A stretch of 64,000 nucleotides of DNA from the NCBI GenBank assembly GCA_964437705.1, contig CAYTHX010000002.1, positions 16,916 to 80,915 on the forward strand. Direction: 5' to 3'. A model generated the notes under the pieces. The model was not told the origin of the DNA and did not search any database. It saw only the letters and a program-made list of their open reading frames with translations. Every line of letters starts with the position of its first letter. Positions within the stretch are counted from its first letter, which is position 1. Source of the DNA: an uncultured Nitrososphaeria archaeon (GTDB lineage Archaea > Thermoproteota > Nitrososphaeria > Geothermarchaeales > JDFR-13). Positions 33,182 to 56,278 of this stretch are shown here, piece by piece. Made by a program: the position numbers and the translations under genes.

Positions 33182-33517
33182 ATGAGAGAGTATAGGAAAG
33201 GTTATAGATTTGAGAGAAGAGTACGAAAATACCTAGAGAAACTTGGATATATCGTATTTAGAGCTGCAGGCTCAAAGCCCATTGACTTAATTGTTATCAC
33301 ACGGAGAAAAGGATTTATTATAGAGTGTAAGGTGAGTAGGAAATATTTACGTAAAAATGATATTAGTAGGTTAATGTATATTCATGAAAAAACTGGTCTT
33401 ATACCAGTTTTTGCCTATCGCGAAAATAATGAAATAAAGTTTCTGAATTTGCTTGATAATAAGATTTTCAATTTTCCACATGCAGAGTCACTTGACAAAT
33501 TTATAGGCACATTTTAA
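33182..33517 (+). CDS. Hjc-like PD-(D/E)xK nuclease (Holliday junction resolvase family)
   Basis: Conserved acidic and lysine residues in Hjc-like spacing (YRFERR; AAGSKPIDLIVI; IIECKVS). At 111 aa it is shorter than canonical Hjc. Confidence 0.5.
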   Translation: MREYRKGYRFERRVRKYLEKLGYIVFRAAGSKPIDLIVITRRKGFIIECKVSRKYLRKNDISRLMYIHEKTGLIPVFAYRENNEIKFLNLLDNKIFNFPHAESLDKFIGTF

Positions 33518-33570: not shown

Positions 33571-34089
33571 TTGGTATTAATTGGTGAGATTAAGGTGAAG
33601 ATTGGTGTAATTTCTGATACTCATGATAATAGGGATTGTATTCTTAAGGCTATAGAGATATTTAATACAGAAAAGGTAGATTTAGTACTACATTGTGGAG
33701 ATCACATTGCCCCATTTACACTTGAATGGTATAAAGGTTTAAATGCTAAAATGATTGGTGTAAAAGGGAACTTAGATGCTGAATACCAACTGCTTAAGGA
33801 GAAATATGAAAGCCTAGGATGGGAGTTTCATAGATTCTCCGCTGTAATTACATTAGAGAGAAAGAAAATTATATTATTACATGGTGTTGATGAAAATGTA
33901 ATTAAGGGATTAATTCATAGTGACGAGTATGACATTATTGTGAGAGGACATTTACATAAGATAATTAATGAATGGCATAAGGATACATTACACTTCTCTC
34001 CCGGAGAGGCTTGTGGATACCTAACACAAAAAAGAACTATAGGTATTATTGAGCTGCCAGAGATTTCAGCTGAAATTATCGAGATTTAG
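33571..34089 (+). CDS. metallophosphoesterase (YfcE/MJ0936 family)
   Basis: GVISDTHDN, GDHIAP, GNLD and GHLH motifs. Confidence 0.7.
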   Translation: MVLIGEIKVKIGVISDTHDNRDCILKAIEIFNTEKVDLVLHCGDHIAPFTLEWYKGLNAKMIGVKGNLDAEYQLLKEKYESLGWEFHRFSAVITLERKKIILLHGVDENVIKGLIHSDEYDIIVRGHLHKIINEWHKDTLHFSPGEACGYLTQKRTIGIIELPEISAEIIEI

Positions 34090-35468: not shown

Positions 35469-36587
35469 ATGACAAGTATAGATAAAGCTGTAGAGAATCT
35501 GAGAAGAAGATTTGAGAGAAAAATTGATAGTTATATAAAGAAGGATAAGTTGGTATTGAGAGACCTGTTTTATATACTAAATTACCTGATTTTTAAGAAG
35601 AATAAGGAAAGAGTTTTTAATATACTTGAATTGATTTCACACTATCAAATTTTAAAGCCAACATATATGAGATTTATGTATGGGTTAGGAGATCCGAGAA
35701 GTAGATTTAATTGGACACAGTTAAGTAATATAACTCATGACTATCTTGGTGGATTTCCAACATATGTGAAGGGTAATAATGCATTTATATATGGGAGGTA
35801 TCCAGATATAGATTCTACAGCTTTATCGGTAGCTATATTAGCTAAGGGTATTACTTTACTAGGAGATGAAAAGATATACTCTAAATACCGTAATAATATT
35901 GTATATGGAATTAAGTATTTAGAGTCGAGAGATGCAAATAATAATGGACTTTTAGAGCAATTAGAGAATGAGGATTGGATGCATTCGATGTTAAGATGTG
36001 GTTCAATTACCTATAGTAATGCTACCGCTCTACTAGCGTTAGATTGGATTATAAGTGCTGCAATAAGTGTTGGTGATAACGAAATTTTGCGGGATGCTAA
36101 GCTTTTTAGAGGTAAGCTACTAAATGCTATATCTGAATTACTATATCTAGACGAGTACTTTATTGAAGGTATAAGTTGCTATGGCTGCCTAATATTAAGA
36201 TACTCAATTGATACTGTTTTATTAGGCTTAACTTCTGTATCTAAATACTTGCAAAATAAAATTGCTAGTCATTTACAAGTGATTGGAGAACGGCTTTTAC
36301 ATAATGGTTTACTAAAGAATATTGATACTACACAGAAGAATACAAGACCAGAAACAGTTAATCCAGGTAGATTATTTAATGGCGGTATATGGACACTTTA
36401 TAACTTACTTTATTTATATTCATGTTTAAGGCATAAAGTTGAACCAGTTATAGATGTAAAGTTACTCTATAATAATGCTAGTTTTATGTGGTTAGATCAT
36501 AAGCTAAAGGGTTATAATGATAATTATCTTCCATCAATAGCTGTTGCATTATATATCTATGAACTTTTTGGTGAAAAATTAAGATAA
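35469..36587 (+). CDS. hypothetical protein (possible alpha/alpha-toroid glycosidase-like fold)
   Basis: 372 aa with a weak resemblance to the six-hairpin glycosidase / GDE C-terminal region (NNGLLEQLENEDWMHS). Low certainty. Confidence 0.3.
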   Translation: MTSIDKAVENLRRRFERKIDSYIKKDKLVLRDLFYILNYLIFKKNKERVFNILELISHYQILKPTYMRFMYGLGDPRSRFNWTQLSNITHDYLGGFPTYVKGNNAFIYGRYPDIDSTALSVAILAKGITLLGDEKIYSKYRNNIVYGIKYLESRDANNNGLLEQLENEDWMHSMLRCGSITYSNATALLALDWIISAAISVGDNEILRDAKLFRGKLLNAISELLYLDEYFIEGISCYGCLILRYSIDTVLLGLTSVSKYLQNKIASHLQVIGERLLHNGLLKNIDTTQKNTRPETVNPGRLFNGGIWTLYNLLYLYSCLRHKVEPVIDVKLLYNNASFMWLDHKLKGYNDNYLPSIAVALYIYELFGEKLR

Positions 36588-38162
36588 CTCCCTCCTCATC
36601 ATATCACGTAGGTATATTTCCTTCAACTCATTAATAGTAGTTACATCTTTGGGATCTTTATCCAGCCTAAACCTAGTTACTCTTGCAAATCTAAGGGCAT
36701 AGCCACTTTTATACTTTGGGCTTTTTTGAACTTCATTAAAGGCTACTTCAACTACAATTTCTGGTTTGACCCATATTCTATATCCTTCATCGGCAATTTT
36801 TAGTTCTAGTAGTTTTCTAGTCATCCACTCAAATTCCTCGTCAGTTAAACCTTTGAATGTTTTTCCTACAATCAAAAATTCACTATTTTCTGGATCATAA
36901 ACTGCTAGGTAGTAATCGCTCAGCCAATTCCTTCTTCTCCCATGTCCCCACTCAGCACCAACAACGACGACATCGATAGTCTCTACTTCTTTAACTTTAA
37001 TCCAATTTGCGCCTCTTACACCCATAACATATGGTGCATCAAGCTTTTTCACCATCACACCTTCATGTCCAGCCCTGATAGCTCTCTCATAGAAATCTTT
37101 AGCAACACTTATATCGTCTGTAACTATTCTCTCAGCTAATAAACTGCTAGGAACTATAGATGTTAGGTATTCATAACGCTTATAATATGGTTCATTTACC
37201 AGCAACTTACCATTTAAATATAAGATGTCAAATAAGTAAAGCTTAATAGGGATTTTTTTAACTATAATTTCGAAGTCCTTAATTCTTTTAAATCTTTTCA
37301 TAAGCTCTTGGAAAGGCCGTGGATTTCCTTTTTCATCAATAGCGATAACCTCGCCTTCTAAGATTACATCACGTACCTTAAGAGTTTTCTTTATGACATC
37401 AGTAACCTCAGGCAAGTTTTCGGTTACATCTGTAAGCCTCCTTGAAAACACCTTAACTTCTCCACTCGCATAATGTATCTGTACCCTAACTCCATCATAT
37501 TTAACTTCTACCGCAGCTCTACCTCCAGCTAACTGCATAGCTTCTTCTATCGTATCTGCTGAAGTTGCAAGCATAGGTCTAATCGGATTAAAAAGCTTAG
37601 GTTTTACATTATCCAGATTAAGCTCTTTTTTACTTAACTTTTCAGCTAACTCACCTATATCACCTATTAGCAAATACGCTTTCCTCAATTTTTCAATATC
37701 TACCTTAGCTACGTCGGCTAACGCCTGTAGAACCAAGCCGACTTCCGCTCCTATCCTCATCTCTCCTGATAGTGATCTAATTAAAAATTCCCTCTCTATG
37801 TCGCTCATTCTACTTAAGAGTGAGGACAGTATATCGACTCTTTTCCTTTGAACATCAGCGCCACTAATTGACGCTACTCTATTAAGTTCTCTGTAAACTT
37901 CTTTTATGGTTGGAGGACCAAGTGGAATTAATGTTTGTATTTTACTTGATATAGCCTTTTTAATTGTAGAGTATCCTATATATAGTGCTTTATTTTCTGA
38001 TTCTGGCAGTACTTTACCTGTTAGTAGAAGAACGAATGGCTTCCACTCATCTGGATTAATCTTTCTAAGAAAATTTGATATTATTCTTCTTTTTTCAAGT
38101 GTAGATGACGTTTCTTCTAGAGACCTACATAACTTAGCAAACTCTAGAAAACTAGTCTCCAA
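36579..38162 (-). CDS. lig: ATP-dependent DNA ligase
   Basis: Adenylation motif KYDGVRVQIH and motifs III-VI (EGEVIA; LYLFDILY; EGVMVK). 527 aa. Confidence 0.9.
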   Translation of the reverse strand: METSFLEFAKLCRSLEETSSTLEKRRIISNFLRKINPDEWKPFVLLLTGKVLPESENKALYIGYSTIKKAISSKIQTLIPLGPPTIKEVYRELNRVASISGADVQRKRVDILSSLLSRMSDIEREFLIRSLSGEMRIGAEVGLVLQALADVAKVDIEKLRKAYLLIGDIGELAEKLSKKELNLDNVKPKLFNPIRPMLATSADTIEEAMQLAGGRAAVEVKYDGVRVQIHYASGEVKVFSRRLTDVTENLPEVTDVIKKTLKVRDVILEGEVIAIDEKGNPRPFQELMKRFKRIKDFEIIVKKIPIKLYLFDILYLNGKLLVNEPYYKRYEYLTSIVPSSLLAERIVTDDISVAKDFYERAIRAGHEGVMVKKLDAPYVMGVRGANWIKVKEVETIDVVVVGAEWGHGRRRNWLSDYYLAVYDPENSEFLIVGKTFKGLTDEEFEWMTRKLLELKIADEGYRIWVKPEIVVEVAFNEVQKSPKYKSGYALRFARVTRFRLDKDPKDVTTINELKEIYLRDMMRRELS

Positions 38163-39351
38163 GTTGATACACCTCAGATGCTAACTCATTAAACATTTTT
38201 ATAAAACTGTCTTCTGAGCTTGATGGTATCGTTGCAGCACCTAAAGTTTGATATCCGTATCCTAAGCCTCCAACTTGATATGCTACCGCCTCAGCTAAAG
38301 CTACGACTGACTGGGCATTATTGGAAAGGATGAGAGTTTCTAGGTATCTAGGTACACGAATTGCAACATTTGTCCATGTTTCACGTAAATTGCCTAAACC
38401 AGGTATTTTTTTCTGTCGCCTCATTAGCCCAAGAATGTACTTATTTTTAAATACTAACCTACCTTGAAATCTCACATAACTTGTAAAGCTATCAAAAACC
38501 CTGGTTCCCATAGAATTAAATATACCTGTATCCATAAACCATTGAACTCTTTTTAATTGGAATAATCCCTCTTTTTCTAGGGCCTCAATCCCTCTCTTAT
38601 ATGCATCTTGTCTTACTATCTTATACCTACTTGCGTCCTCTTTAATCATTCTAAAATCTTTAAATATTAAGGCTTCAACAACTCTTAAAGGACCATCTGC
38701 GTAATAGCCTACTGAGGATGCGAGAGTTATATCCTTATATAGACTTGTAATTTCCCTACTATACCCTTTAACATGTATATGAAATGACATCTTATCCCCT
38801 CGAATTGCTCTTCTCGCTACACCAAGCAACTCTGCCTCAGCAAAGGCACGCCAGTTAAGACCTTTAAATTCCCCCTTGACCTCTCCAATACCAATTAGTG
38901 ATATCCAAGCTACATCTTTATCTTTGCCGAATCGATGCTTATAAATAAAATAAAGAATTGTTGATGTTGTTGCGTAATCTCCACTTAGCTTAAACTTTGT
39001 CGGATTTATATAAGGGATATTATGTGGGACTTCAATTACCTCCTCATGATGATCAATTATATATACACGTCTTCTCATTTTCTCCGGAATCATCACATGT
39101 ATGGGGCCGCCAAGATCCAGAAACATGTACTGATTGTAGTCCTCTCTAAATATCATCTCTAAGGCTTCAGGAAAAACTTTATCAAGACAAACGAGAGTAT
39201 ATTCATTATTTAATTTCTCAGCTAGATATGAAGCTATAGCTGCTGCGGCTACTCCATCAGCATCATCACTAAAAATTATCATTAGTGATGAATCTTTTTC
39301 GAGCTTTTCAGATACTGTATTAATTGCTGTAGTGAGTGATGATTCAGACAC
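38152..39351 (-). CDS. DHH-family phosphoesterase (RecJ/Cdc45-like)
   Basis: DHH motifs (DDADGVAAA; IDHHEE). The gene overlaps the ligase start and follows polB3 on the same strand. Confidence 0.6.
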   Translation of the reverse strand: MSESSLTTAINTVSEKLEKDSSLMIIFSDDADGVAAAAIASYLAEKLNNEYTLVCLDKVFPEALEMIFREDYNQYMFLDLGGPIHVMIPEKMRRRVYIIDHHEEVIEVPHNIPYINPTKFKLSGDYATTSTILYFIYKHRFGKDKDVAWISLIGIGEVKGEFKGLNWRAFAEAELLGVARRAIRGDKMSFHIHVKGYSREITSLYKDITLASSVGYYADGPLRVVEALIFKDFRMIKEDASRYKIVRQDAYKRGIEALEKEGLFQLKRVQWFMDTGIFNSMGTRVFDSFTSYVRFQGRLVFKNKYILGLMRRQKKIPGLGNLRETWTNVAIRVPRYLETLILSNNAQSVVALAEAVAYQVGGLGYGYQTLGAATIPSSSEDSFIKMFNELASEVYQLGD

Positions 39352-39374
39352 AACTATCCCCTGAAATCTTTAGC

Positions 39375-41687
39375 TTAAAAGAGAAATCTATCCATGCTGA
39401 AGTGAAGACCAGAGGCGATTGACTCTAAGTCACTTTTTGATATCCCCATCGGTTCTAATACCCTAGCAGATACTGGAATTACCTGCCTATATATGTAGTA
39501 ATCCCAGTCTATATCCTCTTTCTTCGCCATTGTATAATGTATTGCTCTCTTGTATAGTGGTCCAGAACCCTTTAAGATTACATATCCTATGAACATTCCC
39601 TTCTTGATCTTCCAGCCTTTTAATGCCAACTCTTCAGCTACCGCTAGGTGAGGAGACATAGCTTTATACTCATCTAGACGCTTAGTTATCTGCTCCCATA
39701 TTACAAGCTCATCAATAGGAACTTCACCACGATCTAGCTTCCTAACTCTTTCCCTAAAGTAATCTAAAATCTTATCCTTAGATGCTCCTGTTAAAACCAG
39801 TTTAATCAGATTATACTGAGTTTCCTTAGCATAATTACACCAATCTCTTCTAACATACTCTAAACCAACTACATCTATCTTATCGTCTATAGTTAAGCCT
39901 GCATATCTTTTTTTGGCCTCTGTAAACAATAGAACTTTATATATTTTGTCGATTTTAGCTTCTAAACCTAATTCTTTACTTATCCATGTAAGTAAGGCTT
40001 CAACCTTCTCCTTATCATAGTTTACAAATAGGCTATCGGTATCACCGTAAAGAATATGAAGACCTAATTCCTCAGCTTTTCTCTTACTACTACTTATTGT
40101 TTCTCTCCCTAGGTATGTAACTAACTGAGCTCCCTCCCAGCTGTAGTATCGTGCATTAATCCACCCCATATAACCATACATTGCATTAGCAAGAATCTTT
40201 AACACTCTTTGATGAGCATCTAAAATTCTATATGGAGCAGAGCCCTCTGGAAACTCCTTCATTTTACTTCTGACTTTGTTCCTCTCATCGACTAATCTCT
40301 TTATAATTTCCGGAAATAATCCTTTAATGCTCTGCTTTACTCCGACACCAATTTCCTCAAAGTATTTTACATCATCTTTTTTCTCATATACTATAGTATC
40401 TGGTGAGATGTTATACTTCATTATTAGTGTTGGATACATTGACTTGAAGTCTATAACACATACATTTCTATGAATACCGACTTTAGGCGGTAGTACAAGG
40501 CCTCCTAAGTATGTTCCCTTACCTTTACCCTTAACCTTAATTATAAGCTCTCCCCTCTTAACAGCATTTTTCATAATATAGTTTTCTACTTGAAAACCTG
40601 CAGATGATGATAGTACATAGTCAGCAGGCATTCCAGTAATTGCGGATAAACTAAATATTTCTTCCTTTAATAGCATAAATGCGTCATATATGGTTTTAGC
40701 TCTCCATAGACTATACTTTAGTAGCTCATCCCTGTTATTTTTCCACGCATCATAATATAGTAGTCTATCAAATACTCTACCTGGTTGTGATATACCAAGG
40801 AAATATGCTAGTTCTTCTAGCGTCTTTCTCTGCAGAGAGGGGTTGTTATTGACATAATCCTTTAGGTCAATATTTAATCTTCCAGGGATCGAGAAGTGTC
40901 CATAAAGACTTTGATGTGGTTCGTCACCTCTATATCCGATTTTGAGCGGAATATTCAACACTTTTGACCTCTCAAGTAGGTATGGCCACACAATACTATT
41001 GCCTTCAAATGAAACAATTACATGAGGTGAGTAACTTTGGACATCATTAACTAAAGATTTTAAAATCTCTTTATCATCATTCCTCAGAACATATTGCTTA
41101 TAACCATTAGCAGTATATAAAGTTACTGCTAAAATCGGATCACTCTCTGGATCTGCTTCTCCAATTGGAGAAGCAGTAACTAGGTCGATTGATAAAATTT
41201 TTAATGGTGGATACTCTACTTCTTCAGATAATAATTGAATATCCCGCAGAATATTTATATTACTCTCCACATCATACGTAACTTTGTACCAGCTTGAGGG
41301 AGAAACATCTCTTATTAATAAATACTTATTTGAAAATCTTATATCATCTTCATAAAAAGTTACATCTCGGTAATTAGCTTCAATTATGCGAACAACGTTT
41401 TCTAAATCCTTTGGGGGACCACGAATTAGTAATACTTCTTTATCTCTGCCAACAAGTTTTCTCTTAACTATATCCGCGGTTAAACCTGCAGATTCCCTAA
41501 GTTTAACAAGATCATAGATTTTTCTAAGTGTATTTATATCTGCATCTACATATACCCAATCTCTATGGCCAGGATCATATATATTAATGACAATGCCATT
41601 CTCATCTACCATCCATAAGCAAATTACATCCTTACCGCCTAATTCCTCCGTAGTTAAGTCTAAAAACCATAACTTTTTAGACAACAT
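39375..41687 (-). CDS. dpo3: family-B DNA polymerase (PolB3/Dpo3-like)
   Basis: Exo motifs and pol motifs A-C, including YGDTDS. The size (770 aa) matches Sulfolobus Dpo3. Confidence 0.85.
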   Translation of the reverse strand: MLSKKLWFLDLTTEELGGKDVICLWMVDENGIVINIYDPGHRDWVYVDADINTLRKIYDLVKLRESAGLTADIVKRKLVGRDKEVLLIRGPPKDLENVVRIIEANYRDVTFYEDDIRFSNKYLLIRDVSPSSWYKVTYDVESNINILRDIQLLSEEVEYPPLKILSIDLVTASPIGEADPESDPILAVTLYTANGYKQYVLRNDDKEILKSLVNDVQSYSPHVIVSFEGNSIVWPYLLERSKVLNIPLKIGYRGDEPHQSLYGHFSIPGRLNIDLKDYVNNNPSLQRKTLEELAYFLGISQPGRVFDRLLYYDAWKNNRDELLKYSLWRAKTIYDAFMLLKEEIFSLSAITGMPADYVLSSSAGFQVENYIMKNAVKRGELIIKVKGKGKGTYLGGLVLPPKVGIHRNVCVIDFKSMYPTLIMKYNISPDTIVYEKKDDVKYFEEIGVGVKQSIKGLFPEIIKRLVDERNKVRSKMKEFPEGSAPYRILDAHQRVLKILANAMYGYMGWINARYYSWEGAQLVTYLGRETISSSKRKAEELGLHILYGDTDSLFVNYDKEKVEALLTWISKELGLEAKIDKIYKVLLFTEAKKRYAGLTIDDKIDVVGLEYVRRDWCNYAKETQYNLIKLVLTGASKDKILDYFRERVRKLDRGEVPIDELVIWEQITKRLDEYKAMSPHLAVAEELALKGWKIKKGMFIGYVILKGSGPLYKRAIHYTMAKKEDIDWDYYIYRQVIPVSARVLEPMGISKSDLESIASGLHFSMDRFLF

Positions 41688-42179
41688 AATTCTCCAATAA
41701 ATATATTTTATTTATTGCTTTTTTGGTAATTAGGTATTTGTATCTTAGCTTAAATTCATATTGAGACATTATGATTTTCAAAATCATGGATCACTACAAC
41801 TATTCTTCCCTATATCCTAAGATTCTTAATTAGGATTATTTTTCACTCCTATATTCTACTCAAAACTATACACAGGAAATATCTATGGATTAAGATTGTA
41901 GACTTCTATGTTTTCACTATATACAGTCTATTATAGCACTACAATATTCATTACTAATTATCAGCTAATAAGTTCTATTTCCTAGGATTACCCTCATAAT
42001 TGATATCCTATATTGTAGTTACCTTTCTGTTTTTATCTATTCACTTAAACACTATATTTAAGAGAATGAGAAATCAAGTCTGAATATAATTGTTATTCTA
42101 AAATTATTGACTATATTCCTGAGATCTCGTACTTCAATATGAACTATATCAAGCTTTTATAAGTATTCTAGATTTAAAG

Positions 42180-42932
42180 TTGAACGCTACACAAAACCTC
42201 GAAAAATATATTTATATCGTTTTATTATTCACTAATCGCTATATAGAATATTTTGACTGTATAATGACGCAGCTTATACCAGAGAAAGATAAAGAGATTA
42301 TTAAAAGTGAGTATTGGAGTAAGTTAACGAATAGAGTTAGGTTAATATACTTTGATACTAGACGCGAAGACTGCCAGTATTGCAGTACCATTAGGAATTT
42401 ATATAGAGAGCTTACAGACATGAGTGACTTACTAGACTTAGATATTGTTTACTTCGAGGATAATCCTGAGCTTGCTAAGAAGTATGAAGTATCTGCAGCG
42501 CCTACTGTCGTATTAAAAGGTGCTAATAAAGGACTACTAAAATTTTACGGTTTACCAGCAGGTTCTGAATTCCCTAATTTTATAGATATTATTGTTAAGG
42601 TATCGAATGGGGCTACAGATCTGAATAGGGAAATCATCAATAAAATTCATAAGATTATTCGAGATAAAGTTAAAATTAAAGTTTTTATTACACCAACTTG
42701 TCCATATTGCCCAAGAATGGTTAGTTTAGTATTTCAGTTTGCTATAGTAAGTGAATATGTTGATGCCGAAGCGTGGGAAGCTGTAGAATTTCCTGAGGAA
42801 TCTAGACGGTATGATGTTAAAGCAGTTCCTAAAACAATTATTAATGAAGACTTATCATTTGAGGGTCTAGTATCTCCTGAATACCTACTACACTATATTT
42901 ATCATGCATTATATGGTGCGGAAAGTAAATAA
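42180..42932 (+). CDS. protein disulfide oxidoreductase (two thioredoxin-fold units)
   Basis: Two CxxC active sites (CQYC and CPYC) in tandem thioredoxin-like halves. Confidence 0.7.
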   Translation: MNATQNLEKYIYIVLLFTNRYIEYFDCIMTQLIPEKDKEIIKSEYWSKLTNRVRLIYFDTRREDCQYCSTIRNLYRELTDMSDLLDLDIVYFEDNPELAKKYEVSAAPTVVLKGANKGLLKFYGLPAGSEFPNFIDIIVKVSNGATDLNREIINKIHKIIRDKVKIKVFITPTCPYCPRMVSLVFQFAIVSEYVDAEAWEAVEFPEESRRYDVKAVPKTIINEDLSFEGLVSPEYLLHYIYHALYGAESK

Positions 42933-51909: not shown

Positions 51910-52209
51910 ATGGTGATTGGTAGGGTGGGATTTAGAGAGGGAGATAATGTAAGGATAAGACATTTAATCCTTGACGTGTTAAAACCACATTATCCGGGTA
52001 TTGTTGAGTTGAGCAAAGCGTTAGCAGGCGTAGATGGTGTAGATAGAGTAACCATAGATATTGTTGAGATGGATCAAGATACTGAGAGCGTTAAAATCGA
52101 AATTGAGGGTAATAATATTAATGTTGAGAAACTCATAAAAAGAATTAAGGAAATGGGAGCTTCTGTCCATAGTATTGACTCAGTTACAACCGAAATATCA
52201 AAGGTTTAA
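51910..52209 (+). CDS. small conserved archaeal hypothetical protein (DUF211-like)
   Basis: 99 aa. Its stop overlaps the Lhr start (ATGA). Confidence 0.35.
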   Translation: MVIGRVGFREGDNVRIRHLILDVLKPHYPGIVELSKALAGVDGVDRVTIDIVEMDQDTESVKIEIEGNNINVEKLIKRIKEMGASVHSIDSVTTEISKV

Positions 52210-55052
52210 TGATGACAACAAGTGCCGGGGGTACTCTACATCCCTATATTAAGAAACTTATAGATGAAATTGGATTTAAAACCCTTACTGAGCCTCAAAA
52301 ACGTGCAATTCCTTTGATACTCTCTGGAAAAAATGTACTAATAATTGCGCCTACTGGTAGCGGAAAGACCGAGGCAGCTTTAATACCTATTTTTAGTCAG
52401 TTGATAAGTGGTAATTATAAACCGATTGCTGTGGTCTACATTACACCTCTAAGAGCATTGAATCGAGATTTAATTGACCGTATAAATTGGTGGGCTTCTA
52501 GACTAGATATTGAAGTAGCAGTAAGACATGGAGATACAGTTAAAAAGGAAAGAAGAAGACATGCACTTAAACCGCCCGAAATTATGATCACTACCCCAGA
52601 GACATTCGCCATGCTACTTAATACGAAAATTATGAGTAAGCATCTATCTAATGTAAAGTGGGTTATAGTTGATGAGGTACATGAGTTAGTGGATAGTAAG
52701 AGAGGAGCTCAGTTATCGATTGCTTTAGAAAAGCTTAGGGAGATGACTAATGATTTTCAGATAATTGGCCTGTCAGCAACTGTAGGTTCTCCGGAAATTG
52801 TAGGCAAGTTTCTAGTTGGTGCTAATAGAGAAATGGAAATTATAAATATTGATGTTACAAAGAGAATGAGATTTCAAATATTGTACCCTACTCCAACTGA
52901 TGAGGATTATAGGTTAGCTGATGAACTATATACATATCCAGCTGTCGCTGCTAGAATACGAGCAATTATAAATCTAGTTAATAAACATAGAGCAACATTG
53001 ATATTTACAAATACTAGACCCATGGCTGAGATACTATCAAGTAGAATTTTACTGTTAGATGAGAATTTTCCTGTAAGTATTCATCATGGTAGCTTATCAG
53101 CAAATGTTCGAATGAGAATAGAGCGTATGCTTAAGGATAGTAGAATTAAGGGGGTTGTATGTACATCATCACTAGAATTAGGGATCGACATTGGAAATAT
53201 AGATCTAGTTATTCAATACAACTCCCCTAGACAAGTAACTAGACTCATTCAGAGAGCTGGTAGAAGTGGCCACTGGATAGAAAGAGAGTCTAAGGGCGTA
53301 ATTATCGTTCAAGATTCAGATGATGCTCTTGAGTCAATTGCTATAGTTGAGTATGCTAAAAGAAATATTCTGGAAAAACCGATAGTTCCGAGTAAACCTT
53401 TAGATGTACTGTCGCATGAAATTGCTGGATATCTTATAGCTAACAGAGTAGTAAGTGCCAAGAAAATTTATGATGTAATACAGAGGAGCTATGTTTATAG
53501 AGACCTCACTTATGATGAGTATAAGAGACTACTCGATTTTCTAAGTAATTTGGTCGACCGATATATAATTTATGATGAGTCTTCTGATCTGATATATCGT
53601 GGGAGAATAAGGAGATTATTTGAGTATTATTTTGAAAACTTGTCGATGATTCCTGAGATTAAGCAATATTTAGTAGTTAATGAAGAGGATGGATCACCTA
53701 TAGGGATACTTGATGGAGAGTTTGTAGCGGAGTACGGTGAACCAGGATTTAAATTTATTATGACTGGTAGACCATGGCGTATTGTACATGTTTATCGTGA
53801 TAGAGTTTATGTAAAGCCAGATGATGATCCGATAGGGGCGATTCCTTACTGGGTCGGGGAAGAAATTCCGGTGCCTTATCACATTGCACAAAGAGTTGGT
53901 GAGATAAAGCGTAAACTAGAAGAGTTAGTAAGGAATAGCGTGGATAATCCTGTCCGGGTACTTTCTAGCGAGTTAAATGTTACTCAAGATCTACTGCGTA
54001 AAGCGTTAGAACCTTACGTAGAGCAGCTAAATGCTTCTCTACCGATTCCAACAGATCGCCGGATAGTTATGGAGAAGTTTCAGGATAAGCTGATTATTCA
54101 TGTTCATGGTGGTACATTAATAAATAGAGCACTGGCCATCCTTATATCACAGTTAATTTTTGAGGAGTTTGGTGAATCAGTGTATTCTTCAAGCGATCCT
54201 TATAAGATTATAATATCTACTCAGACTGTTCAGCCTAATGACGTTGAAAGAATGCTTCTAGAGGTTACTTTGGATAATGCTGAGAAGCTCATAAGAGCTG
54301 GGATTGAAAATACGCCCTACTTTAGATGGAGATTAATACATGTTGCTCGTAAAATGGGGCTAATATCTAAGGACGTGACTTTAGATCCCACAAAAACTGA
54401 GCAACTAGTATTATCATTAAGGGGTACCCCAGCATATGATGAAGCATATAAGGAGAGTATAGAGAGAGATAGGGATATTAGGGGAGCATTAAATATTCTA
54501 AGGAGAATAATTAACGGTGAGCTTACTATCGAGGTTATACCGAATAAACTTAGCCCAACACCTCTTATGGAGCACTTCCTAAAGTATTCTAGTATAAAGT
54601 TAGAGCCAACTAGAGTTGATAAGTTAAAGATGCTAAAGATACTGAGTATACGAGTAAGGCTCTTAAATGAAGTTGTTACCCTAGCATGTTTATCATGCCT
54701 GAATTATATTGATGAAATGAGAGTTAGGGATCTTCCTGATGATATATTATGTCCTAATTGTGGATCGAGAAAAATTGGCGTCTCAAAGGAGCTTTTGGAT
54801 GATGTAATGAGAGTTATATCAATAGCTAAAGTAGGTGGAAGGAATGTAGAGGGAGATAGTATATGGAAGGAGCTCAATCAAACTTCAAAATTAATTGAAA
54901 AGTATGGTAAAGCGGCTGCTATAGTTATTTCTTCGGGATTACCAATAAATAAGGCTAAGGATATACTATCTAGGGAGGGCAGAGTTTCTGGTAGATTATT
55001 TAGGCTTATTCTTGAGGCCGAGAAGAAAAGTCTTCTCGAGAAGTACCAATAA
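52209..55052 (+). CDS. lhr: Lhr-like large ATP-dependent helicase (SF2, DEVH box)
   Basis: APTGSGKTEAAL, ITPLRALNRD, DEVHEL and QRAGRSGH motifs. The C-terminal region has a 4-Cys zinc site (CLSC...CPNC). 947 aa. Confidence 0.8.
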   Translation: MMTTSAGGTLHPYIKKLIDEIGFKTLTEPQKRAIPLILSGKNVLIIAPTGSGKTEAALIPIFSQLISGNYKPIAVVYITPLRALNRDLIDRINWWASRLDIEVAVRHGDTVKKERRRHALKPPEIMITTPETFAMLLNTKIMSKHLSNVKWVIVDEVHELVDSKRGAQLSIALEKLREMTNDFQIIGLSATVGSPEIVGKFLVGANREMEIINIDVTKRMRFQILYPTPTDEDYRLADELYTYPAVAARIRAIINLVNKHRATLIFTNTRPMAEILSSRILLLDENFPVSIHHGSLSANVRMRIERMLKDSRIKGVVCTSSLELGIDIGNIDLVIQYNSPRQVTRLIQRAGRSGHWIERESKGVIIVQDSDDALESIAIVEYAKRNILEKPIVPSKPLDVLSHEIAGYLIANRVVSAKKIYDVIQRSYVYRDLTYDEYKRLLDFLSNLVDRYIIYDESSDLIYRGRIRRLFEYYFENLSMIPEIKQYLVVNEEDGSPIGILDGEFVAEYGEPGFKFIMTGRPWRIVHVYRDRVYVKPDDDPIGAIPYWVGEEIPVPYHIAQRVGEIKRKLEELVRNSVDNPVRVLSSELNVTQDLLRKALEPYVEQLNASLPIPTDRRIVMEKFQDKLIIHVHGGTLINRALAILISQLIFEEFGESVYSSSDPYKIIISTQTVQPNDVERMLLEVTLDNAEKLIRAGIENTPYFRWRLIHVARKMGLISKDVTLDPTKTEQLVLSLRGTPAYDEAYKESIERDRDIRGALNILRRIINGELTIEVIPNKLSPTPLMEHFLKYSSIKLEPTRVDKLKMLKILSIRVRLLNEVVTLACLSCLNYIDEMRVRDLPDDILCPNCGSRKIGVSKELLDDVMRVISIAKVGGRNVEGDSIWKELNQTSKLIEKYGKAAAIVISSGLPINKAKDILSREGRVSGRLFRLILEAEKKSLLEKYQ

Positions 55053-55551
55053 CTCTCTCTGCTCCAATAAATAGCCTAACAAGCCTCTCTAAATTAAATT
55101 CAATCTTACTTCTTAAGCCGATTTTTAGTGAATCATCTTCCCTCTCAAGATAACCTAGTCTAATAAATTTCTCTATAGCTCTCTCAACTCTCCATCTAGC
55201 AATTTTATTAGAAATTATATCAATAAGATCTTTCTCTGCAGCTTTCCCACCTCTTGAGAGAATATAGCTTAGTGATACAGCTAAAACCGCCATCTCATCT
55301 ATACGCCATCCATAAGTTTTAATTTCACGTGTTAACTTTTCATCCTTAACTACAACAGCGTAATGCTTTGTATCACCTTCCTCAATACATTTAATTTGTA
55401 AACCTAGTGGCTCAAGATCCTCCTCTAAAACCTTAAGTATCTCCTCATAATGCTCACCCAAATATTTTCTCAGCTCCCACTCCTTAGCCCCAGGATATTT
55501 ATGTCTCTTAAAGAGAAGTAATGCTGCAGCCTTCTTTAGCTTATCCTTCAA
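55006..55551 (-). CDS. ScpB-like (kite) winged-helix protein
   Basis: N-terminal AALLLF, like the ScpB EALLF motif. Two predicted winged-helix halves. Overlaps the scpA-like stop. Confidence 0.5.
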   Translation of the reverse strand: MKDKLKKAAALLLFKRHKYPGAKEWELRKYLGEHYEEILKVLEEDLEPLGLQIKCIEEGDTKHYAVVVKDEKLTREIKTYGWRIDEMAVLAVSLSYILSRGGKAAEKDLIDIISNKIARWRVERAIEKFIRLGYLEREDDSLKIGLRSKIEFNLERLVRLFIGAERVIGTSREDFSSRPQE

Positions 55552-56278
55552 CTTTACTCCTCCTCACCCAAGTAGCTACTGATTGTAAGTTCTCGACCAC
55601 AATATTTTCAACAGGCTTTACATAAATTTTATCCTCAAAACGCCTATACATCATTACAACCCTTCCCTCAGTTATTAAAAAACTAAGCAGATACGCTCTT
55701 TCAACTGGGTTACCCTTACTATTAATAAAGTTGTAGTAATCAACCCACTTACCCTTAGAGGTAAAAATCAATTCCTGATATAACTCATCGAGTTTCTCAT
55801 GAATATTTAATGGAATAATGAAATCTCTTGTTAACTCAGCCTTAGGTAGTTCATAAACTATATGTTTAATTTTTCTTTCATCAATTGGTTTAAGCTTGTT
55901 AAAATAATCTAGAGCATACTCTATCAAAATATTATCAGATACCTCTATCTCGACGACTGGAGTCCAAACTGACCTCAGAATTTCGGCGATTGCTTCGATC
56001 GATAACTGTTGAGTTCTTAGCTCAACTAATATTGGCTCTATATACAACCCTAGGCCTCTTGATTTTAATAACTCATATTGGCAAGATAAGATTATCGTTA
56101 AGCCGTATAAAGCTCTTATATCTTTAATTATGTCGTCTAAACTCTTTAGCTTCTTAAATAAGCTACTTATCGAATCTAAATACTTACTTATATCCACATC
56201 TAAAGGGTCAACTTTACCTTCCAATACCTTAATAGATAAATCGATTAACCTCTCATAAAGCTGATTATTCTTCAACAT
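55541..56278 (-). CDS. ScpA-like kleisin
   Basis: N-terminal VDPLDVDISKYL, like the ScpA PLDLLL...IDI motif, with a C-terminal winged-helix-like end. Overlaps the SMC-like stop. Confidence 0.55.
   Translation of the reverse strand: MLKNNQLYERLIDLSIKVLEGKVDPLDVDISKYLDSISSLFKKLKSLDDIIKDIRALYGLTIILSCQYELLKSRGLGLYIEPILVELRTQQLSIEAIAEILRSVWTPVVEIEVSDNILIEYALDYFNKLKPIDERKIKHIVYELPKAELTRDFIIPLNIHEKLDELYQELIFTSKGKWVDYYNFINSKGNPVERAYLLSFLITEGRVVMMYRRFEDKIYVKPVENIVVENLQSVATWVRRSKVEG

What the first reader, a model, noticed from the sequence alone, without database searches (positions are those of the whole stretch)
36579..41687. Co-directional PolB3 - DHH phosphoesterase - ATP-dependent DNA ligase cluster with overlapping junctions
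The three genes run on the minus strand. polB3 (YGDTDS present) ends at 39375. The DHH gene (DDADG and IDHHEE motifs intact) spans 39351..38152. The ligase gene starts at 38162, overlapping the DHH stop. A polymerase, a DHH nuclease/phosphoesterase and a ligase together look like a gap-filling, flap or end-processing and sealing module. The DHH protein retains catalytic motifs, unlike the inactive RecJdbh/Cdc45 of Sulfolobus, so it may be an active exonuclease partner of Dpo3.
Basis: partly seen in the sequence, partly recalled or inferred. Interest (0 to 1): 0.5.

Follow-up and report, generated by a model that had tools for sequence, protein, structure and literature searches.

The report
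Proofreading-dead PolB3, RecJ/Cdc45 paralog, ligase operon
An uncultured hot-spring/subsurface archaeon (Geothermarchaeales) keeps three DNA-handling genes in one tight operon: a family-B DNA polymerase that has lost its own proofreading site, an extra copy of the RecJ/Cdc45 replication nuclease, and a DNA ligase. The polymerase–RecJ pairing recurs across several archaeal phyla and is even fused into one protein in some, so the two very probably work as a unit.

Summary
The three minus-strand ORFs exist exactly as described (polB 39375-41687, DHH 38152-39351, ligase 36579-38162). Only the DHH/ligase junction overlaps (11 nt); polB and DHH are 23 nt apart.

The organism is not a Sulfolobus-type crenarchaeon. 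It is a Geothermarchaeales (Nitrososphaeria) MAG lineage.

- **Polymerase:** B3-type with an intact polymerase site. Three of its four 3'-5' exonuclease carboxylates are replaced, as in every operon-linked ortholog.
- **DHH protein:** by sequence and predicted fold it belongs with archaeal RecJ/Cdc45 (GAN, PfuRecJ, MthRecJ), not with nanoRNases or pAp phosphatases. It is a lineage-specific second paralog. Its metal-binding DHH motifs are kept, but the DHHA1 substrate motifs are remodelled (Ser to Ala; GDGH to GYGY).
- **Operon conservation:** polB-DHH-lig is conserved in about 17 related loci.
- **PolB3-DHH adjacency beyond the order:** it recurs in Caldarchaeales, other Nitrososphaeria, Nezhaarchaeota and Baldrarchaeia. 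It is a true gene fusion in two protein clusters.
- **Caveat:** one close relative keeps the operon with a catalytically dead DHH, so a non-catalytic partner role must exist.

Best reading: a dedicated PolB3 accessory subunit, probably still a nuclease here, plus a ligase. Together they would do gap filling, end trimming and sealing. This is a new variant of known components, of moderate-to-good interest.

The parts
39375..41687 (-). polB: family-B DNA polymerase of the B3 type, 770 aa. The polymerase site is intact and the 3'-5' exonuclease site is inactivated.
   Evidence: Pfam DNA_pol_B 1.5e-69. Best PDB match 5MDN at 1.8e-148. Motif A IDFKSMYPT (40428-40454), motif B KILANAMYGY (40170-40199), motif C YGDTDS (40032-40049) and KKRYAG (39897-39914) are intact.
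41175..41192 (-). Degenerate Exo I motif: SIDLVT in place of FDIE (Glu replaced by Val).
   Evidence: Residue-level alignment to Pyrobaculum PolB 5MDN. The same loss is seen in all operon-linked orthologs.
40977..41003 (-). Degenerate Exo II motif: GNSIVWPYL in place of NxxFDWPYL (Asp replaced by Val).
40698..40718 (-). Degenerate Exo III motif: KYSLWRA in place of YxxxD (Asp replaced by Arg).
39378..39404 (-). PolB C-terminal tail HFSMDRFLF, a conserved G(L/M)DxF-type tail. It is a possible degenerate PCNA-binding (PIP-like) motif.
   Evidence: Exo-intact relatives end in the canonical Q[AV]SLF[DE]F motif, whereas this clade ends in GLDxF. PCNA binding is inferred only.
39352..39374 (-). 23-nt polB-DHH spacer with a GGGG Shine-Dalgarno-like element 7 nt before the GTG start.
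   Evidence: Sequence read directly.
38152..39351 (-). DHH/DHHA1 protein, 399 aa: a PolB3-linked paralog of archaeal RecJ/Cdc45 (GAN family).
   Evidence: PDB by sequence: GAN 5GHR 2e-15 and PfuRecJ 8e-13. AF2 model pLDDT 93.8. Foldseek best matches are MthRecJ-Cdc45, PfuRecJ, GAN and MjRecJ2. Motif I SDDADG 39253-39270; II FLDLGG 39106-39123; III IDHHEE 39040-39057; IV GIGEVKG 38872-38892. Motif VI AIRVPRY 38344-38364 has Ser replaced by Ala with the Arg kept. Motif VII GGLGYGYQ 38248-38271 has GDGH replaced by GYGY.
38152..38162 (-). 11-nt overlap between the DHH stop codon (TAG) and the ligase TTG start.
   Evidence: Sequence read directly. L043 has a 20-nt overlap at the same junction.
36579..38162 (-). 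Three-domain ATP-dependent DNA ligase (Lig1 type), 527 aa.
   Evidence: Pfam DNA_ligase_A_N, _M and _C. TIGR00574 scores 410.9 bits against a 217.8 cut-off. Best PDB match is Pfu ligase 2CFM at 6.6e-118. Adenylation motif I KYDGVR lies at 37485-37502.
41688..42179 (.). A/T-rich 492-bp divergent intergenic region upstream of polB. It is the presumed promoter region for the operon and for the divergent thioredoxin-like gene.
   Evidence: It is the only sizeable non-coding stretch upstream of the three genes. An AATAAATAAAATATATTT stretch and a GGAG lie just before the polB ATG. A perfect 13-nt inverted repeat lies at 41697-41709 and 42203-42215. Promoter function is inferred, not shown.

Best explanation
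This is a conserved operon of Geothermarchaeales archaea. It encodes three proteins:
1. A PolB3 polymerase that can still synthesise DNA but has lost its built-in 3'-5' proofreading site.
2. A lineage-specific second copy of the archaeal RecJ/Cdc45 (GAN-family) DHH protein, acting as a dedicated partner or accessory subunit of that polymerase.
3. A standard ATP-dependent DNA ligase.

**Proposed mechanism.** PolB3 fills a gap, either between Okazaki fragments or in a repair patch. The RecJ-like partner is held on the polymerase and trims the single-stranded end the polymerase cannot handle itself: a displaced 5' RNA/DNA end, or a mismatched or blocked 3' end. The ligase then seals the nick.

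**Shown here**
- Gene identities and the operon layout.
- Loss of the exonuclease residues.
- Retention of the DHH metal-binding residues.
- Paralogy of the DHH protein.
- PolB3-DHH linkage across phyla, and a real gene fusion.

**Inferred**
- Physical association of the proteins.
- Nuclease activity of this copy, and its polarity.
- The pathway (lagging-strand maturation versus patch repair).
For: **1. Tight operon.**
- The spacer is 23 nt and the overlap 11 nt.

**2. Same order and strand in related loci.**
- L001-L012, L020, L023, L035, L036, L042 and L043 keep the arrangement. DHH identity to the window falls as low as about 33%.

**3. PolB3-DHH adjacency outside that order, in different arrangements.** This argues against frozen synteny.
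- dnaG>DHH><polB in L015 and L034; polB>DHH in Baldrarchaeum L018; polB><DHH in L038; one gene in between in Caldarchaeales L037.
- A ligase>x>x>DHH cluster occurs in L028.

**4. Rosetta-stone fusion.** PolB3-DHH single proteins exist in two 90% clusters.
- P0023 has 3 members from ENA, JGI and an NCBI MAG. P0305 is 1202 aa, 80% identical, with 4 members.
- In the 90%-identical P0303 the junction is in frame and lacks an internal Met.

**5. Exonuclease site dead, polymerase site intact.**
- Exo I, II and III carboxylates are replaced in the window PolB and in all operon-linked orthologs, and in the fused proteins. Motifs A, B, C and KKRY are intact.

**6. The DHH protein is a RecJ/Cdc45 relative** by sequence and fold.
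- D29, D30, D32, D79, D100, H101, H102 and E157 are invariant across 13 sequences that share only 28-68% identity with the window protein.

**7. It is a distinct paralog clade.**
- Bootstrap support is 99%. The second Geothermarchaeales paralog clade also has 99%.

**8. Precedent in the literature.**
- GAN is proposed to work with Fen1 in primer removal (PMC11193018, citing Burkhart 2017).
- B3-type PolB performs Okazaki-fragment maturation in T. kodakarensis (PMC13136892).
Against: - In L043 the operon is intact but its DHH protein is catalytically dead: the motif II Asp is lost, the DHH motif is deleted and the motif VI Arg is lost. The PolB there is 64% identical to the window's. Nuclease chemistry is therefore dispensable in at least one close lineage.
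- L011 and L012 have DDH in place of DHH.
- In the window clade two DHHA1 substrate-contact positions are changed. These are the Ser equivalent to MjRecJ2 Ser371 / PfuRecJ Ser408, and the His of GGGH equivalent to PfuRecJ His440. Activity could be weak or altered (PMC11193018).
- Within Geothermarchaeales the whole 12-kb neighbourhood is syntenic (SUI1, Trm5, thioredoxin-like, GGR, Hjc, GlyRS), so conservation inside that order alone says little.
- Exo-dead PolB3 genes also occur with no adjacent DHH gene (L039, L040).
- Exo-intact PolB3 genes also sit next to DHH genes (L015, L018, L034). The two traits are therefore not strictly coupled.
- There are no transcript, interaction or activity data.
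- I could not check whether these genomes carry another ligase, Fen1, PolB1 or PolD.
Confidence: 0.5

Rival explanations
1. Non-catalytic scaffold. The DHH paralog acts like eukaryotic Cdc45 or Sulfolobus RecJdbh, as a structural adaptor. It tethers the exo-dead PolB3 (and perhaps the ligase) to GINS/MCM or another replisome hub. Any residual nuclease activity would be incidental.
For: - The operon persists with a dead DHH protein in L043, and a dead copy persists at the same Trm5/SUI1 locus with no PolB in the marine contig L041.
- Repeated inactivation with retention is the documented pattern of archaeal RecJ/Cdc45 evolution (PMC3307487).
- The DHHA1 substrate motifs are already remodelled in the window clade.
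- Eukaryotic Cdc45 chains are significant structural matches.
Against: - The eight invariant acidic and His positions of DHH motifs I-IV, which include the metal ligands, are invariant in the window protein and its 12 aligned relatives despite 28-68% identity. That is hard to explain without selection for catalysis.
- The same genomes already carry another RecJ/Cdc45 paralog with full motifs that could serve CMG.
- The insert at the position of the GINS-binding CID is about half the euryarchaeal length (versus PMC11193018).
Confidence: 0.25
2. Outsourced proofreading. The DHH protein is a 3'-5' exonuclease that replaces the lost intrinsic proofreading of PolB3. This would make a two-subunit polymerase analogous to Pol III alpha plus epsilon, or to PolD DP2 plus DP1.
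For: - The exo site is dead in every PolB3 that is operon-linked or fused to a DHH domain with intact motifs.
- Archaeal RecJ homologs with 3'-5' polarity exist (MjRecJ2; PfuRecJ on RNA primers; PMC11193018, PMC3675489).
Against: - In L043 both the PolB exo site and the DHH protein are dead.
- Exo-dead PolB3 genes without a neighbouring DHH gene are common in Bathyarchaeia and Methanomethylicota.
- PolB3-DHH adjacency also occurs with exo-proficient PolB3 (L015, L018, L034), so the link predates and is independent of exo loss.
- Polarity cannot be read from sequence.
Confidence: 0.13
3. Inherited gene order with no functional coupling. Three housekeeping DNA-metabolism genes happen to lie together in one lineage.
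For: The whole surrounding block is syntenic within Geothermarchaeales. Makarova et al. 2014 found no conserved PolB3 neighbourhood other than the convergent dnaG (PMC4104785).
Against: - Adjacency recurs in at least five lineages beyond Geothermarchaeales with different orientations and neighbours, and as a fusion.
- The junctions are 23 nt and -11 nt.
Confidence: 0.08
4. The DHH protein is a nanoRNase or pAp phosphatase (NrnA-like) with no link to DNA replication or repair.
For: It has the generic DHH/DHHA1 architecture. A pAp phosphatase (8A8K) appears among the structural hits.
Against: - That hit is about 11 orders of magnitude weaker than the archaeal RecJ/Cdc45 hits and has TM 0.48.
- The sequence hits in the PDB are exclusively archaeal RecJ/GAN.
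- NCBIfam hits are only RecJ models.
- The GGGH His that the RecJ/NrnA-type DHHA1 domain uses in substrate binding is absent.
Confidence: 0.03

Closest known systems
GAN / archaeal RecJ-Cdc45 (T. kodakarensis GAN 5GHR, P. furiosus RecJ 5X4H, M. thermautotrophicus RecJ-Cdc45 7BIH; arCOG00427)
   Same: - It shares the DHH plus DHHA1 two-lobe fold with an insert at the CID position.
- These are the best sequence and structure matches.
- DHH motifs I-IV are conserved.
- A link to replication genes is shared.
   Different: - It is about 60-80 aa shorter, with a reduced insert.
- Motif IV has Glu where euryarchaeal RecJs have Asp. This is shared with all TACK-type relatives.
- Motif VI Ser is Ala and motif VII GGGH/GDGH is GYGY.
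- It fails the NCBIfam RecJ_archaeal and GAN cut-offs (83 against 360 bits; 52 against 850 bits).
- It is encoded between polB3 and a ligase, not next to rpS15/rpS3Ae/pcc1.
- It is a second paralog.
Sulfolobus RecJdbh / eukaryotic Cdc45 (inactivated CMG subunits)
   Same: They are homologous proteins. Relatives of the window protein (P0045, P0054, P0072) have likewise lost catalytic residues while being retained.
   Different: The window protein keeps all DHH metal-binding residues and a DHHA1 domain. Nothing here shows association with GINS or MCM.
Archaeal PolB3 (Pyrobaculum calidifontis PolB 5MDN; Sulfolobus Dpo3; Thermococcales PolB)
   Same: Full-length collinear alignment at 1.8e-148. 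The polymerase motifs are the same.
   Different: Exo I Glu, Exo II Asp and Exo III Asp are all replaced. The canonical C-terminal QxxLxxFF PIP box is replaced by G(L/M)DxF.
PCNA toolbelt for Okazaki maturation (PolB / Fen1 / Lig1 on PCNA) and bacterial Pol I (polymerase plus 5' nuclease) with ligase
   Same: It follows the same fill, trim, seal logic: a polymerase, a nuclease and a ligase acting at a nick or gap.
   Different: The nuclease is a DHH/RecJ-family enzyme rather than a FEN/XPG nuclease. The three genes are encoded together as one operon. PCNA involvement is untested.
Bacterial LigD (polymerase + 3'-phosphoesterase + ligase) and split-proofreading replicases (Pol III alpha/epsilon; PolD DP2/DP1)
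   Same: The combination is analogous: a polymerase that lacks its own nuclease, together with a separate phosphoesterase, and in LigD also a ligase.
   Different: The protein families are unrelated (primase-polymerase and LigD-PE; DnaQ; Mre11-like DP1). This is an analogy of design only, not homology.

Membership tests
Archaeal family-B DNA polymerase, B3 group | Closer to B3 reference enzymes than to B1 enzymes. | tested here: met
   5MDN 1.8e-148 and Thermococcales PolB about 1e-93, against Sso Dpo1 1S5J 3.5e-41. No formal PolB phylogeny was built.
Archaeal family-B DNA polymerase, B3 group | Polymerase motifs A (DxxSLYPS), B (KxxxNxxYG) and C (YGDTDS), plus KKRY. | tested here: met
   IDFKSMYPT, KILANAMYGY, YGDTDS and KKRYAG are present.
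Archaeal family-B DNA polymerase, B3 group | Active 3'-5' exonuclease: Exo I DxE, Exo II NxxxFD, Exo III YxxxD. | tested here: not met
   IDLV, NSIVW and YSLWR: only the first Asp is kept. The protein is a member by descent, but an exonuclease-inactivated variant.
Archaeal family-B DNA polymerase, B3 group | C-terminal PCNA-interacting (PIP) box. | tested here: inconclusive
   The canonical Q[AV]SLF[DE]F motif is present in exo-intact relatives. The window clade has a conserved G(L/M)DxF. Binding was not tested.
Archaeal RecJ/Cdc45 (GAN family, arCOG00427-like) | DHH-domain motifs I-IV (DxD, D, DHH, D/E). | tested here: met
   D30/D32, D79, D100-H101-H102 and E157 are invariant in the 13-sequence alignment.
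Archaeal RecJ/Cdc45 (GAN family, arCOG00427-like) | DHHA1 motifs VI (S-x-R) and VII (GGGH / GDGH). | tested here: not met
   AIRVP: Arg is kept and Ser is replaced by Ala. GYGY: the His is lost. The less derived operon-linked relatives L035 and P0017 keep S-x-R and GDGH.
Archaeal RecJ/Cdc45 (GAN family, arCOG00427-like) | Overall fold, including an insert at the CID position. | tested here: met
   AF2 pLDDT 93.8. Foldseek: 7BIH 2.4e-23 and 5X4H TM 0.77. The insert (about residues 176-232) is shorter than the 90-100 aa euryarchaeal CID.
Archaeal RecJ/Cdc45 (GAN family, arCOG00427-like) | Curated HMM thresholds (NCBIfam RecJ_archaeal and GAN_nuclease; Pfam DHH and DHHA1). | tested here: not met
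   83.3 against 360 bits; 52.2 against 850 bits; Pfam DHH 26.4 against 28.1 bits; no DHHA1 hit.
Archaeal RecJ/Cdc45 (GAN family, arCOG00427-like) | Conserved neighbourhood with rpS15, rpS3Ae and pcc1 (Makarova 2012). | tested here: not met
   The window gene lies between polB3 and the ligase. The other paralog in Ca. Scotarchaeum (L016) directly follows rpS3Ae, but this was seen in that one locus only.
Archaeal RecJ/Cdc45 (GAN family, arCOG00427-like) | Binding to GINS (Gins51 C-terminal domain) and MCM. | not testable with these tools
   No interaction prediction or experimental data are available.
ATP-dependent DNA ligase (Lig1 type, TIGR00574) | DNA-binding, adenylation and OB domains; motif I KxDGxR; passes the curated cut-off. 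| tested here: met
   Pfam A_N, A_M and A_C. TIGR00574 410.9 against 217.8 bits. KYDGVR is present. Pfu ligase 2CFM 6.6e-118.
NrnA / pAp phosphatase / nanoRNase DHH enzymes | Closest sequence and structure relatives are NrnA-type enzymes, with an intact GGGH motif. | tested here: not met
   There are no NrnA-type sequence hits. The pAp phosphatase 8A8K scores only 6e-12 with TM 0.48. The GGGH His is absent.

The most novel reading that the evidence does not exclude
Nitrososphaeria-type archaea may use a previously unrecognised two-subunit (sometimes single-chain) family-B polymerase. Its dead intrinsic exonuclease would be functionally replaced by a dedicated RecJ/Cdc45-family DHH nuclease. 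That would make a PolB3-RecJ holoenzyme analogous to Pol III alpha-epsilon or PolD DP2-DP1. In Geothermarchaeales it is co-expressed with the ligase as a self-contained gap-filling and sealing machine. This would also give the first concrete biochemical job for the long-unexplained nuclease activity of archaeal Cdc45/RecJ. It would also provide an archaeal precedent for a direct Cdc45-family to B-family polymerase contact.
Probability: 0.2. Interest if true: 0.8.

Novelty: new variant of a known kind. Interest (0 to 1): 0.6.

Why it matters
Two questions in archaeal replication are still open. What is the nuclease activity of RecJ/Cdc45 for? What does PolB3 do in organisms that have other replicases?

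This locus gives a genomically defined and testable pairing. It contains a PolB3 that has discarded its own proofreading site. That polymerase is encoded with, and in some lineages fused to, a RecJ/Cdc45-family protein, and here also with the ligase.

The papers I read on RecJ and PolB neighbourhoods (PMC3307487, PMC4104785, PMC7544198, PMC3914693, PMC12680538) do not describe this linkage. They also do not describe the fusion or a clade-wide exonuclease loss in PolB3.

If the pair forms a complex, it is a new polymerase architecture. It could also shed light on how a Cdc45-like protein came to sit beside B-family polymerases in the eukaryotic replisome. The proteins are small and come from thermophilic habitats, which should favour expression, so the idea can be tested directly in vitro.

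Tried and rejected
- **Sulfolobus / Dpo3 frame:** rejected. The nearest genomes are Geothermarchaeales MAGs.
- **NanoRNase / pAp phosphatase identity:** rejected on sequence and fold.
- **Fusion as a one-off assembly error:** rejected. It is seen in ENA, JGI and NCBI assemblies at 80-100% identity with a diverged in-frame linker.
- **P0100 (1810 aa) as a PolB-DHH-ligase triple fusion:** rejected. It is a HAD hydrolase + DHH + FAD oxidoreductase protein.
- **Strict coupling of 'exo-dead PolB3' with 'adjacent DHH':** rejected (L039, L040, L015, L018, L034).
- **The second paralog always lying in the rpS3Ae neighbourhood:** not upheld. Only L016 shows it.
- **Bacterial-type promoter and terminator scan:** uninformative, 25 sites found against 26 expected.
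- **tRNA and Rfam scans of the window:** nothing found.
- **Repeat search in the upstream intergenic region:** only one 13-nt A/T inverted repeat.
- **Foldseek against AFDB50:** unavailable.
- **Biopython bootstrap:** timed out and was replaced by my own NJ bootstrap.
- **AF2 model of the natural fusion:** not attempted, because the tool returns neither PAE nor coordinates, so domain docking could not have been judged.

Full report
**Observation**

ORF listing confirms three co-directional minus-strand genes at the stated coordinates:
- polB, 39375-41687, 770 aa, ATG start.
- A DHH protein, 38152-39351, 399 aa, GTG start.
- A ligase, 36579-38162, 527 aa, TTG start.

Identical-length gene products are on record in public collections, and the window comes from a 150.7-kb contig.

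The ligase start overlaps the DHH stop by 11 nt. polB and DHH do not overlap: they are 23 nt apart, and the spacer carries a GGGG Shine-Dalgarno-like element. The only substantial non-coding DNA upstream is the 492-bp A/T-rich divergent region at 41688-42179. Downstream, the ligase ends tail-to-tail against a convergent gene. The layout is that of a single operon. That is an inference, because no transcript data exist and the bacterial promoter/terminator scan was uninformative.

**Who it belongs to**

The DHH protein has only 14 relatives in the word-indexed 5.8-billion-protein search. The genome scan places the nearest loci in MAGs named Ca. Scotarchaeum otlingeri JdFR-13, Ca. Geothermarchaeum rappei JdFR-14, Geothermarchaeota and 'Nitrososphaeria archaeon'. 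A PolB relative is labelled Candidatus Geothermarchaeales. 'Dpo3' and the RecJdbh comparison are therefore the wrong frame.

**The polymerase**

The protein is a full-length family-B polymerase (Pfam 1.5e-69). Its best solved relative is Pyrobaculum calidifontis PolB 5MDN (1.8e-148), which Kazlauskas et al. call PolB3 (PMC7544198). Thermococcales PolB follows at about 1e-93. Sulfolobus Dpo1 (B1) reaches only 3.5e-41.

Polymerase motifs A, B, C and KKRY are intact. The residue-level alignment shows a different picture for the exonuclease site:
- Exo I FDIE reads IDLV.
- Exo II NxxFDWPYL reads NSIVWPYL.
- Exo III YxxxD reads YSLWR.

Three of the four carboxylates are gone. These are the positions mutated to make exo-minus laboratory polymerases (D141/E143/D215/D315 in Pfu numbering, from my own knowledge). 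The same losses occur in all 13 operon-linked orthologs I extracted. PolB3 genes from Nezhaarchaeota-like and Baldrarchaeum loci keep FDIE / FDWPY / YxxxD.

A wider survey of 107 homologs shows that exo-degenerate PolB3 is common in Geothermarchaeales, Caldarchaeales, other Nitrososphaeria, Bathyarchaeia, Methanomethylicota and a Brockarchaeota-labelled entry. A shared Arg at the Exo III Asp position in the Nitrososphaeria-type sequences suggests one old loss there. This is an inference, as no tree was built. The C-terminus also differs: exo-intact relatives end in a canonical Q[AV]SLF[DE]F PIP box, whereas this clade ends in G(L/M)DxF.

**The DHH protein**

Pfam DHH scores just below its threshold, and NCBIfam hits only archaeal RecJ models, all on the N-terminal 170 residues and all far below cut-off. 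Against solved structures, the only sequence hits are GAN (2e-15), PfuRecJ, MthRecJ-Cdc45 and MjRecJ2.

An AF2 model built on 13 sequences is confident (pLDDT 93.8, pTM 0.92). Foldseek ranks the matches as follows:
- First: MthRecJ-Cdc45 (2.4e-23), PfuRecJ (TM 0.77), GAN and MjRecJ2.
- Then: bacterial RecJ (about 1e-12).
- Then: a pAp phosphatase (6e-12, TM 0.48) and eukaryotic Cdc45.

D29, D30, D32, D79, D100, H101, H102 and E157 are invariant across 13 sequences that share only 28-68% identity with the window protein. The published metal ligands are Asp35, His106 and Asp165 in MjRecJ2 and PfuRecJ (PMC11193018). I equate these by motif position with D32, H101 and E157.

The DHHA1 lobe is remodelled in the window clade:
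- The motif VI Ser, which anchors the scissile phosphate in MjRecJ2 and PfuRecJ, is Ala. The Arg is kept.
- The family's GDGH (the GGGH equivalent; His440 of PfuRecJ contacts the ribose) is GYGY in every member.
- Less derived operon-linked relatives (L035, P0017) still have S-x-R and GDGH.

**It is an extra paralog**

Two MAGs each carry two copies: JdFR-13 has L004 and L016, and CAZHBK01 has L005 and L019. In my NJ bootstrap, all sequences found at the polB/ligase or Trm5-SUI1 locus form one clade with 99% support. That clade holds the window type plus L035, P0017, P0045, P0054 and P0072. The other Geothermarchaeales copies (L013, L014, L016, L019) form a separate 99% clade inside an unresolved TACK/Asgard radiation.

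The L016 copy directly follows rpS3Ae. That is the neighbourhood Makarova et al. (PMC3307487) describe for the replicative RecJ/Cdc45. I saw it only in that one locus, so calling that copy 'the CMG one' is tentative.

**Linkage**

Within Geothermarchaeales, polB>DHH>lig is found wherever the contig is long enough. The loci are L001-L012, L020, L023, L035 and L036, L042 and L043. The whole block from SUI1 to GlyRS is syntenic there too, so this alone is weak evidence.

The informative cases lie outside that order:
- dnaG>DHH><polB3 in L034 and Nezhaarchaeota L015. This matches and extends the convergent dnaG/polB3 neighbourhood noted by Makarova et al. 2014 (PMC4104785).
- polB3>DHH in Baldrarchaeum L018.
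- polB3><DHH in a Nitrososphaeria MAG, L038.
- polB3, one unrelated gene, then DHH in Caldarchaeales L037.
- lig>x>x>DHH in L028.

The strongest evidence is a natural PolB3-DHH fusion protein:
- P0023 is 1187 aa, with Pfam DNA_pol_B_exo1, DNA_pol_B and DHH.
- Its 90% cluster has members from ENA, JGI and an NCBI MAG. The NCBI member is MFB0569444.1, 90% identical. Its linker is diverged but in frame, and it has no internal Met.
- A second cluster, P0305 (1202 aa, 80% identical, four members), has the same architecture.
- The fused polymerases are also exo-degenerate (FHALY; FCxER). Their DHH domains keep all motifs, including GDGH.

The counter-examples are PolB3 genes with no DHH neighbour in a Bathyarchaeia MAG and a Methanomethylicota contig.

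**The complication**

L043 carries a PolB 64% identical to the window's, also exo-dead. It has the same operon with an overlapping DHH/ligase junction. Its DHH protein (P0045) has lost the motif II Asp, has the DHH motif deleted, and has Ser in place of the motif VI Arg.

A marine Tara contig (L041) has a likewise dead member of the same paralog clade. It sits directly beside Trm5 and SUI1 with no polB. That fits the reported absence of PolB3 from Thaumarchaeota (PMC4104785). L011 and L012 read DDH instead of DHH.

Catalysis is therefore dispensable in some lineages, yet the protein is retained. This is the same pattern as Cdc45, RecJdbh and the haloarchaeal RecJ homologs (PMC3307487).

**Synthesis**

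The best-supported statement is that this DHH paralog is a dedicated partner of PolB3. Support comes from adjacency in at least five lineages outside Geothermarchaeales and from the stable fusion.

In the window's own version the strictly conserved metal site argues that it still cuts nucleic acid. The remodelled DHHA1 pocket means its substrate or efficiency may differ from GAN.

Together with a polymerase that cannot edit its own 3' ends and a ligase translated from an overlapping start, the simplest mechanism is fill, trim, seal at gaps. Two published results give precedent. GAN is proposed to cooperate with Fen1 in primer removal in T. kodakarensis (PMC11193018, citing Burkhart 2017). B3-type PolB is the Okazaki-maturation polymerase there (PMC13136892).

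I cannot decide between 5' processing and 3' proofreading. The L043 case and the imperfect correlation with exo loss argue against obligatory trans-proofreading.

My confidence estimates:

| Explanation | Confidence |
|---|---|
| Composite explanation (partner subunit, probably a nuclease, plus ligase) | 0.5 |
| Purely structural Cdc45-like adaptor | 0.25 |
| Trans-proofreading as the specific role | 0.13 |
| Uncoupled synteny | 0.08 |
| NanoRNase / pAp phosphatase | 0.03 |

**Novelty**

All three proteins belong to known families. What I did not find in the papers I searched and read is:
- A conserved PolB3-RecJ/Cdc45 linkage.
- Its fusion form.
- The polB3-recJ-lig operon.
- Clade-wide inactivation of the PolB3 exonuclease.

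The papers read were. Makarova 2014 states that PolB3 genes generally lack conserved neighbourhoods apart from the convergent dnaG. I therefore rate this as a new variant of a known kind, with interest 0.6.

Noticed in passing
L033 3886-7449; proteins P0023, P0303, P0304, P0305: Natural single-chain PolB3-RecJ/Cdc45 fusion proteins (1187-1202 aa) occur in Nitrososphaeria-labelled MAGs and metagenomes, in two 90% clusters. The exonuclease motifs are degenerate and the DHH motifs are intact. In L033 the next gene is a Metallophos_2 phosphoesterase homologous to window 33571-34089.
   Followed up: partly
Proteins P0193-P0232 and P0306-P0309; L039, L040: Exonuclease-degenerate but polymerase-intact PolB3 homologs are widespread in Caldarchaeales, Bathyarchaeia, Methanomethylicota and other TACK MAGs. 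Many have no DHH neighbour. In L040 the polB overlaps a convergent 3-methyladenine DNA glycosylase gene.
   Followed up: partly
L043 6001-7146 (P0045); L041 2068-3297 (P0054); P0072: These are catalytically dead members of the same DHH paralog clade. One is still inside a polB-DHH-lig operon. Another sits in a marine Tara Oceans contig at the Trm5/SUI1 locus with no polB at all, as if the polymerase had been lost and the dead partner retained.
   Followed up: partly
L028 4823-8935: A co-directional cluster with overlapping junctions: ligase (570 aa), a 136-aa ORF, a 275-aa ORF and a RecJ/Cdc45-type DHH (385 aa). The two middle ORFs have no Pfam match.
   Followed up: no
L034 6833-11630 and L015 6731-11537: The arrangement is dnaG (Toprim) > RecJ/Cdc45-like DHH > < polB3 (exo-intact). 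This places a RecJ/Cdc45 gene inside the convergent dnaG/polB3 neighbourhood previously described for crenarchaea.
   Followed up: partly
window 33182-33517 and 33571-34089: An Hjc Holliday-junction resolvase homolog (Pfam 5e-13) lies next to a small Metallophos_2 phosphoesterase, 2.5-3.4 kb from the operon. Both are part of the conserved Geothermarchaeales block.
   Followed up: partly
window 52209-55052 and 55006-58079: An Lhr-type large helicase (DEAD, DEAD_assoc, WH_Lhr) is present. Nearby is a 604-aa SMC_N/AAA_23 Rad50-like ATPase, followed by two ORFs (245 and 181 aa) with no Pfam match. This may be a second DNA-repair cluster.
   Followed up: no
window 41697-41709 and 42203-42215: A perfect 13-nt A/T inverted repeat (ATAAATATATTTT / AAAATATATTTAT) brackets the divergent polB / thioredoxin-like intergenic region. 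It may represent paired TATA-like promoter elements.
   Followed up: no
window 42180-42932: The listed TTG start of the double-thioredoxin-fold gene is probably too far upstream. Homologs align only from about residues 12-32, and an in-frame Met lies at residue 29.
   Followed up: no
window 35469-36587: A conserved 372-aa ORF convergent with the ligase (9-nt overlap) has no Pfam or NCBIfam match. Its L035 homolog carries only a weak Glyco_hydro_94 hit. It is syntenic in most Geothermarchaeales loci but absent from L043.
   Followed up: no
Proteins P0100 (1810 aa) and P0141 (835 aa): RecJ/Cdc45-like DHH domains are fused to HAD-family hydrolase domains, and in P0100 also to an FAD-dependent glycerol-3-phosphate-oxidase-like domain. 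These unusual architectures are of unknown origin.
   Followed up: no
window 1-64000: No tRNA genes and no Rfam family at gathering threshold were found in the whole 64-kb window.
   Followed up: yes
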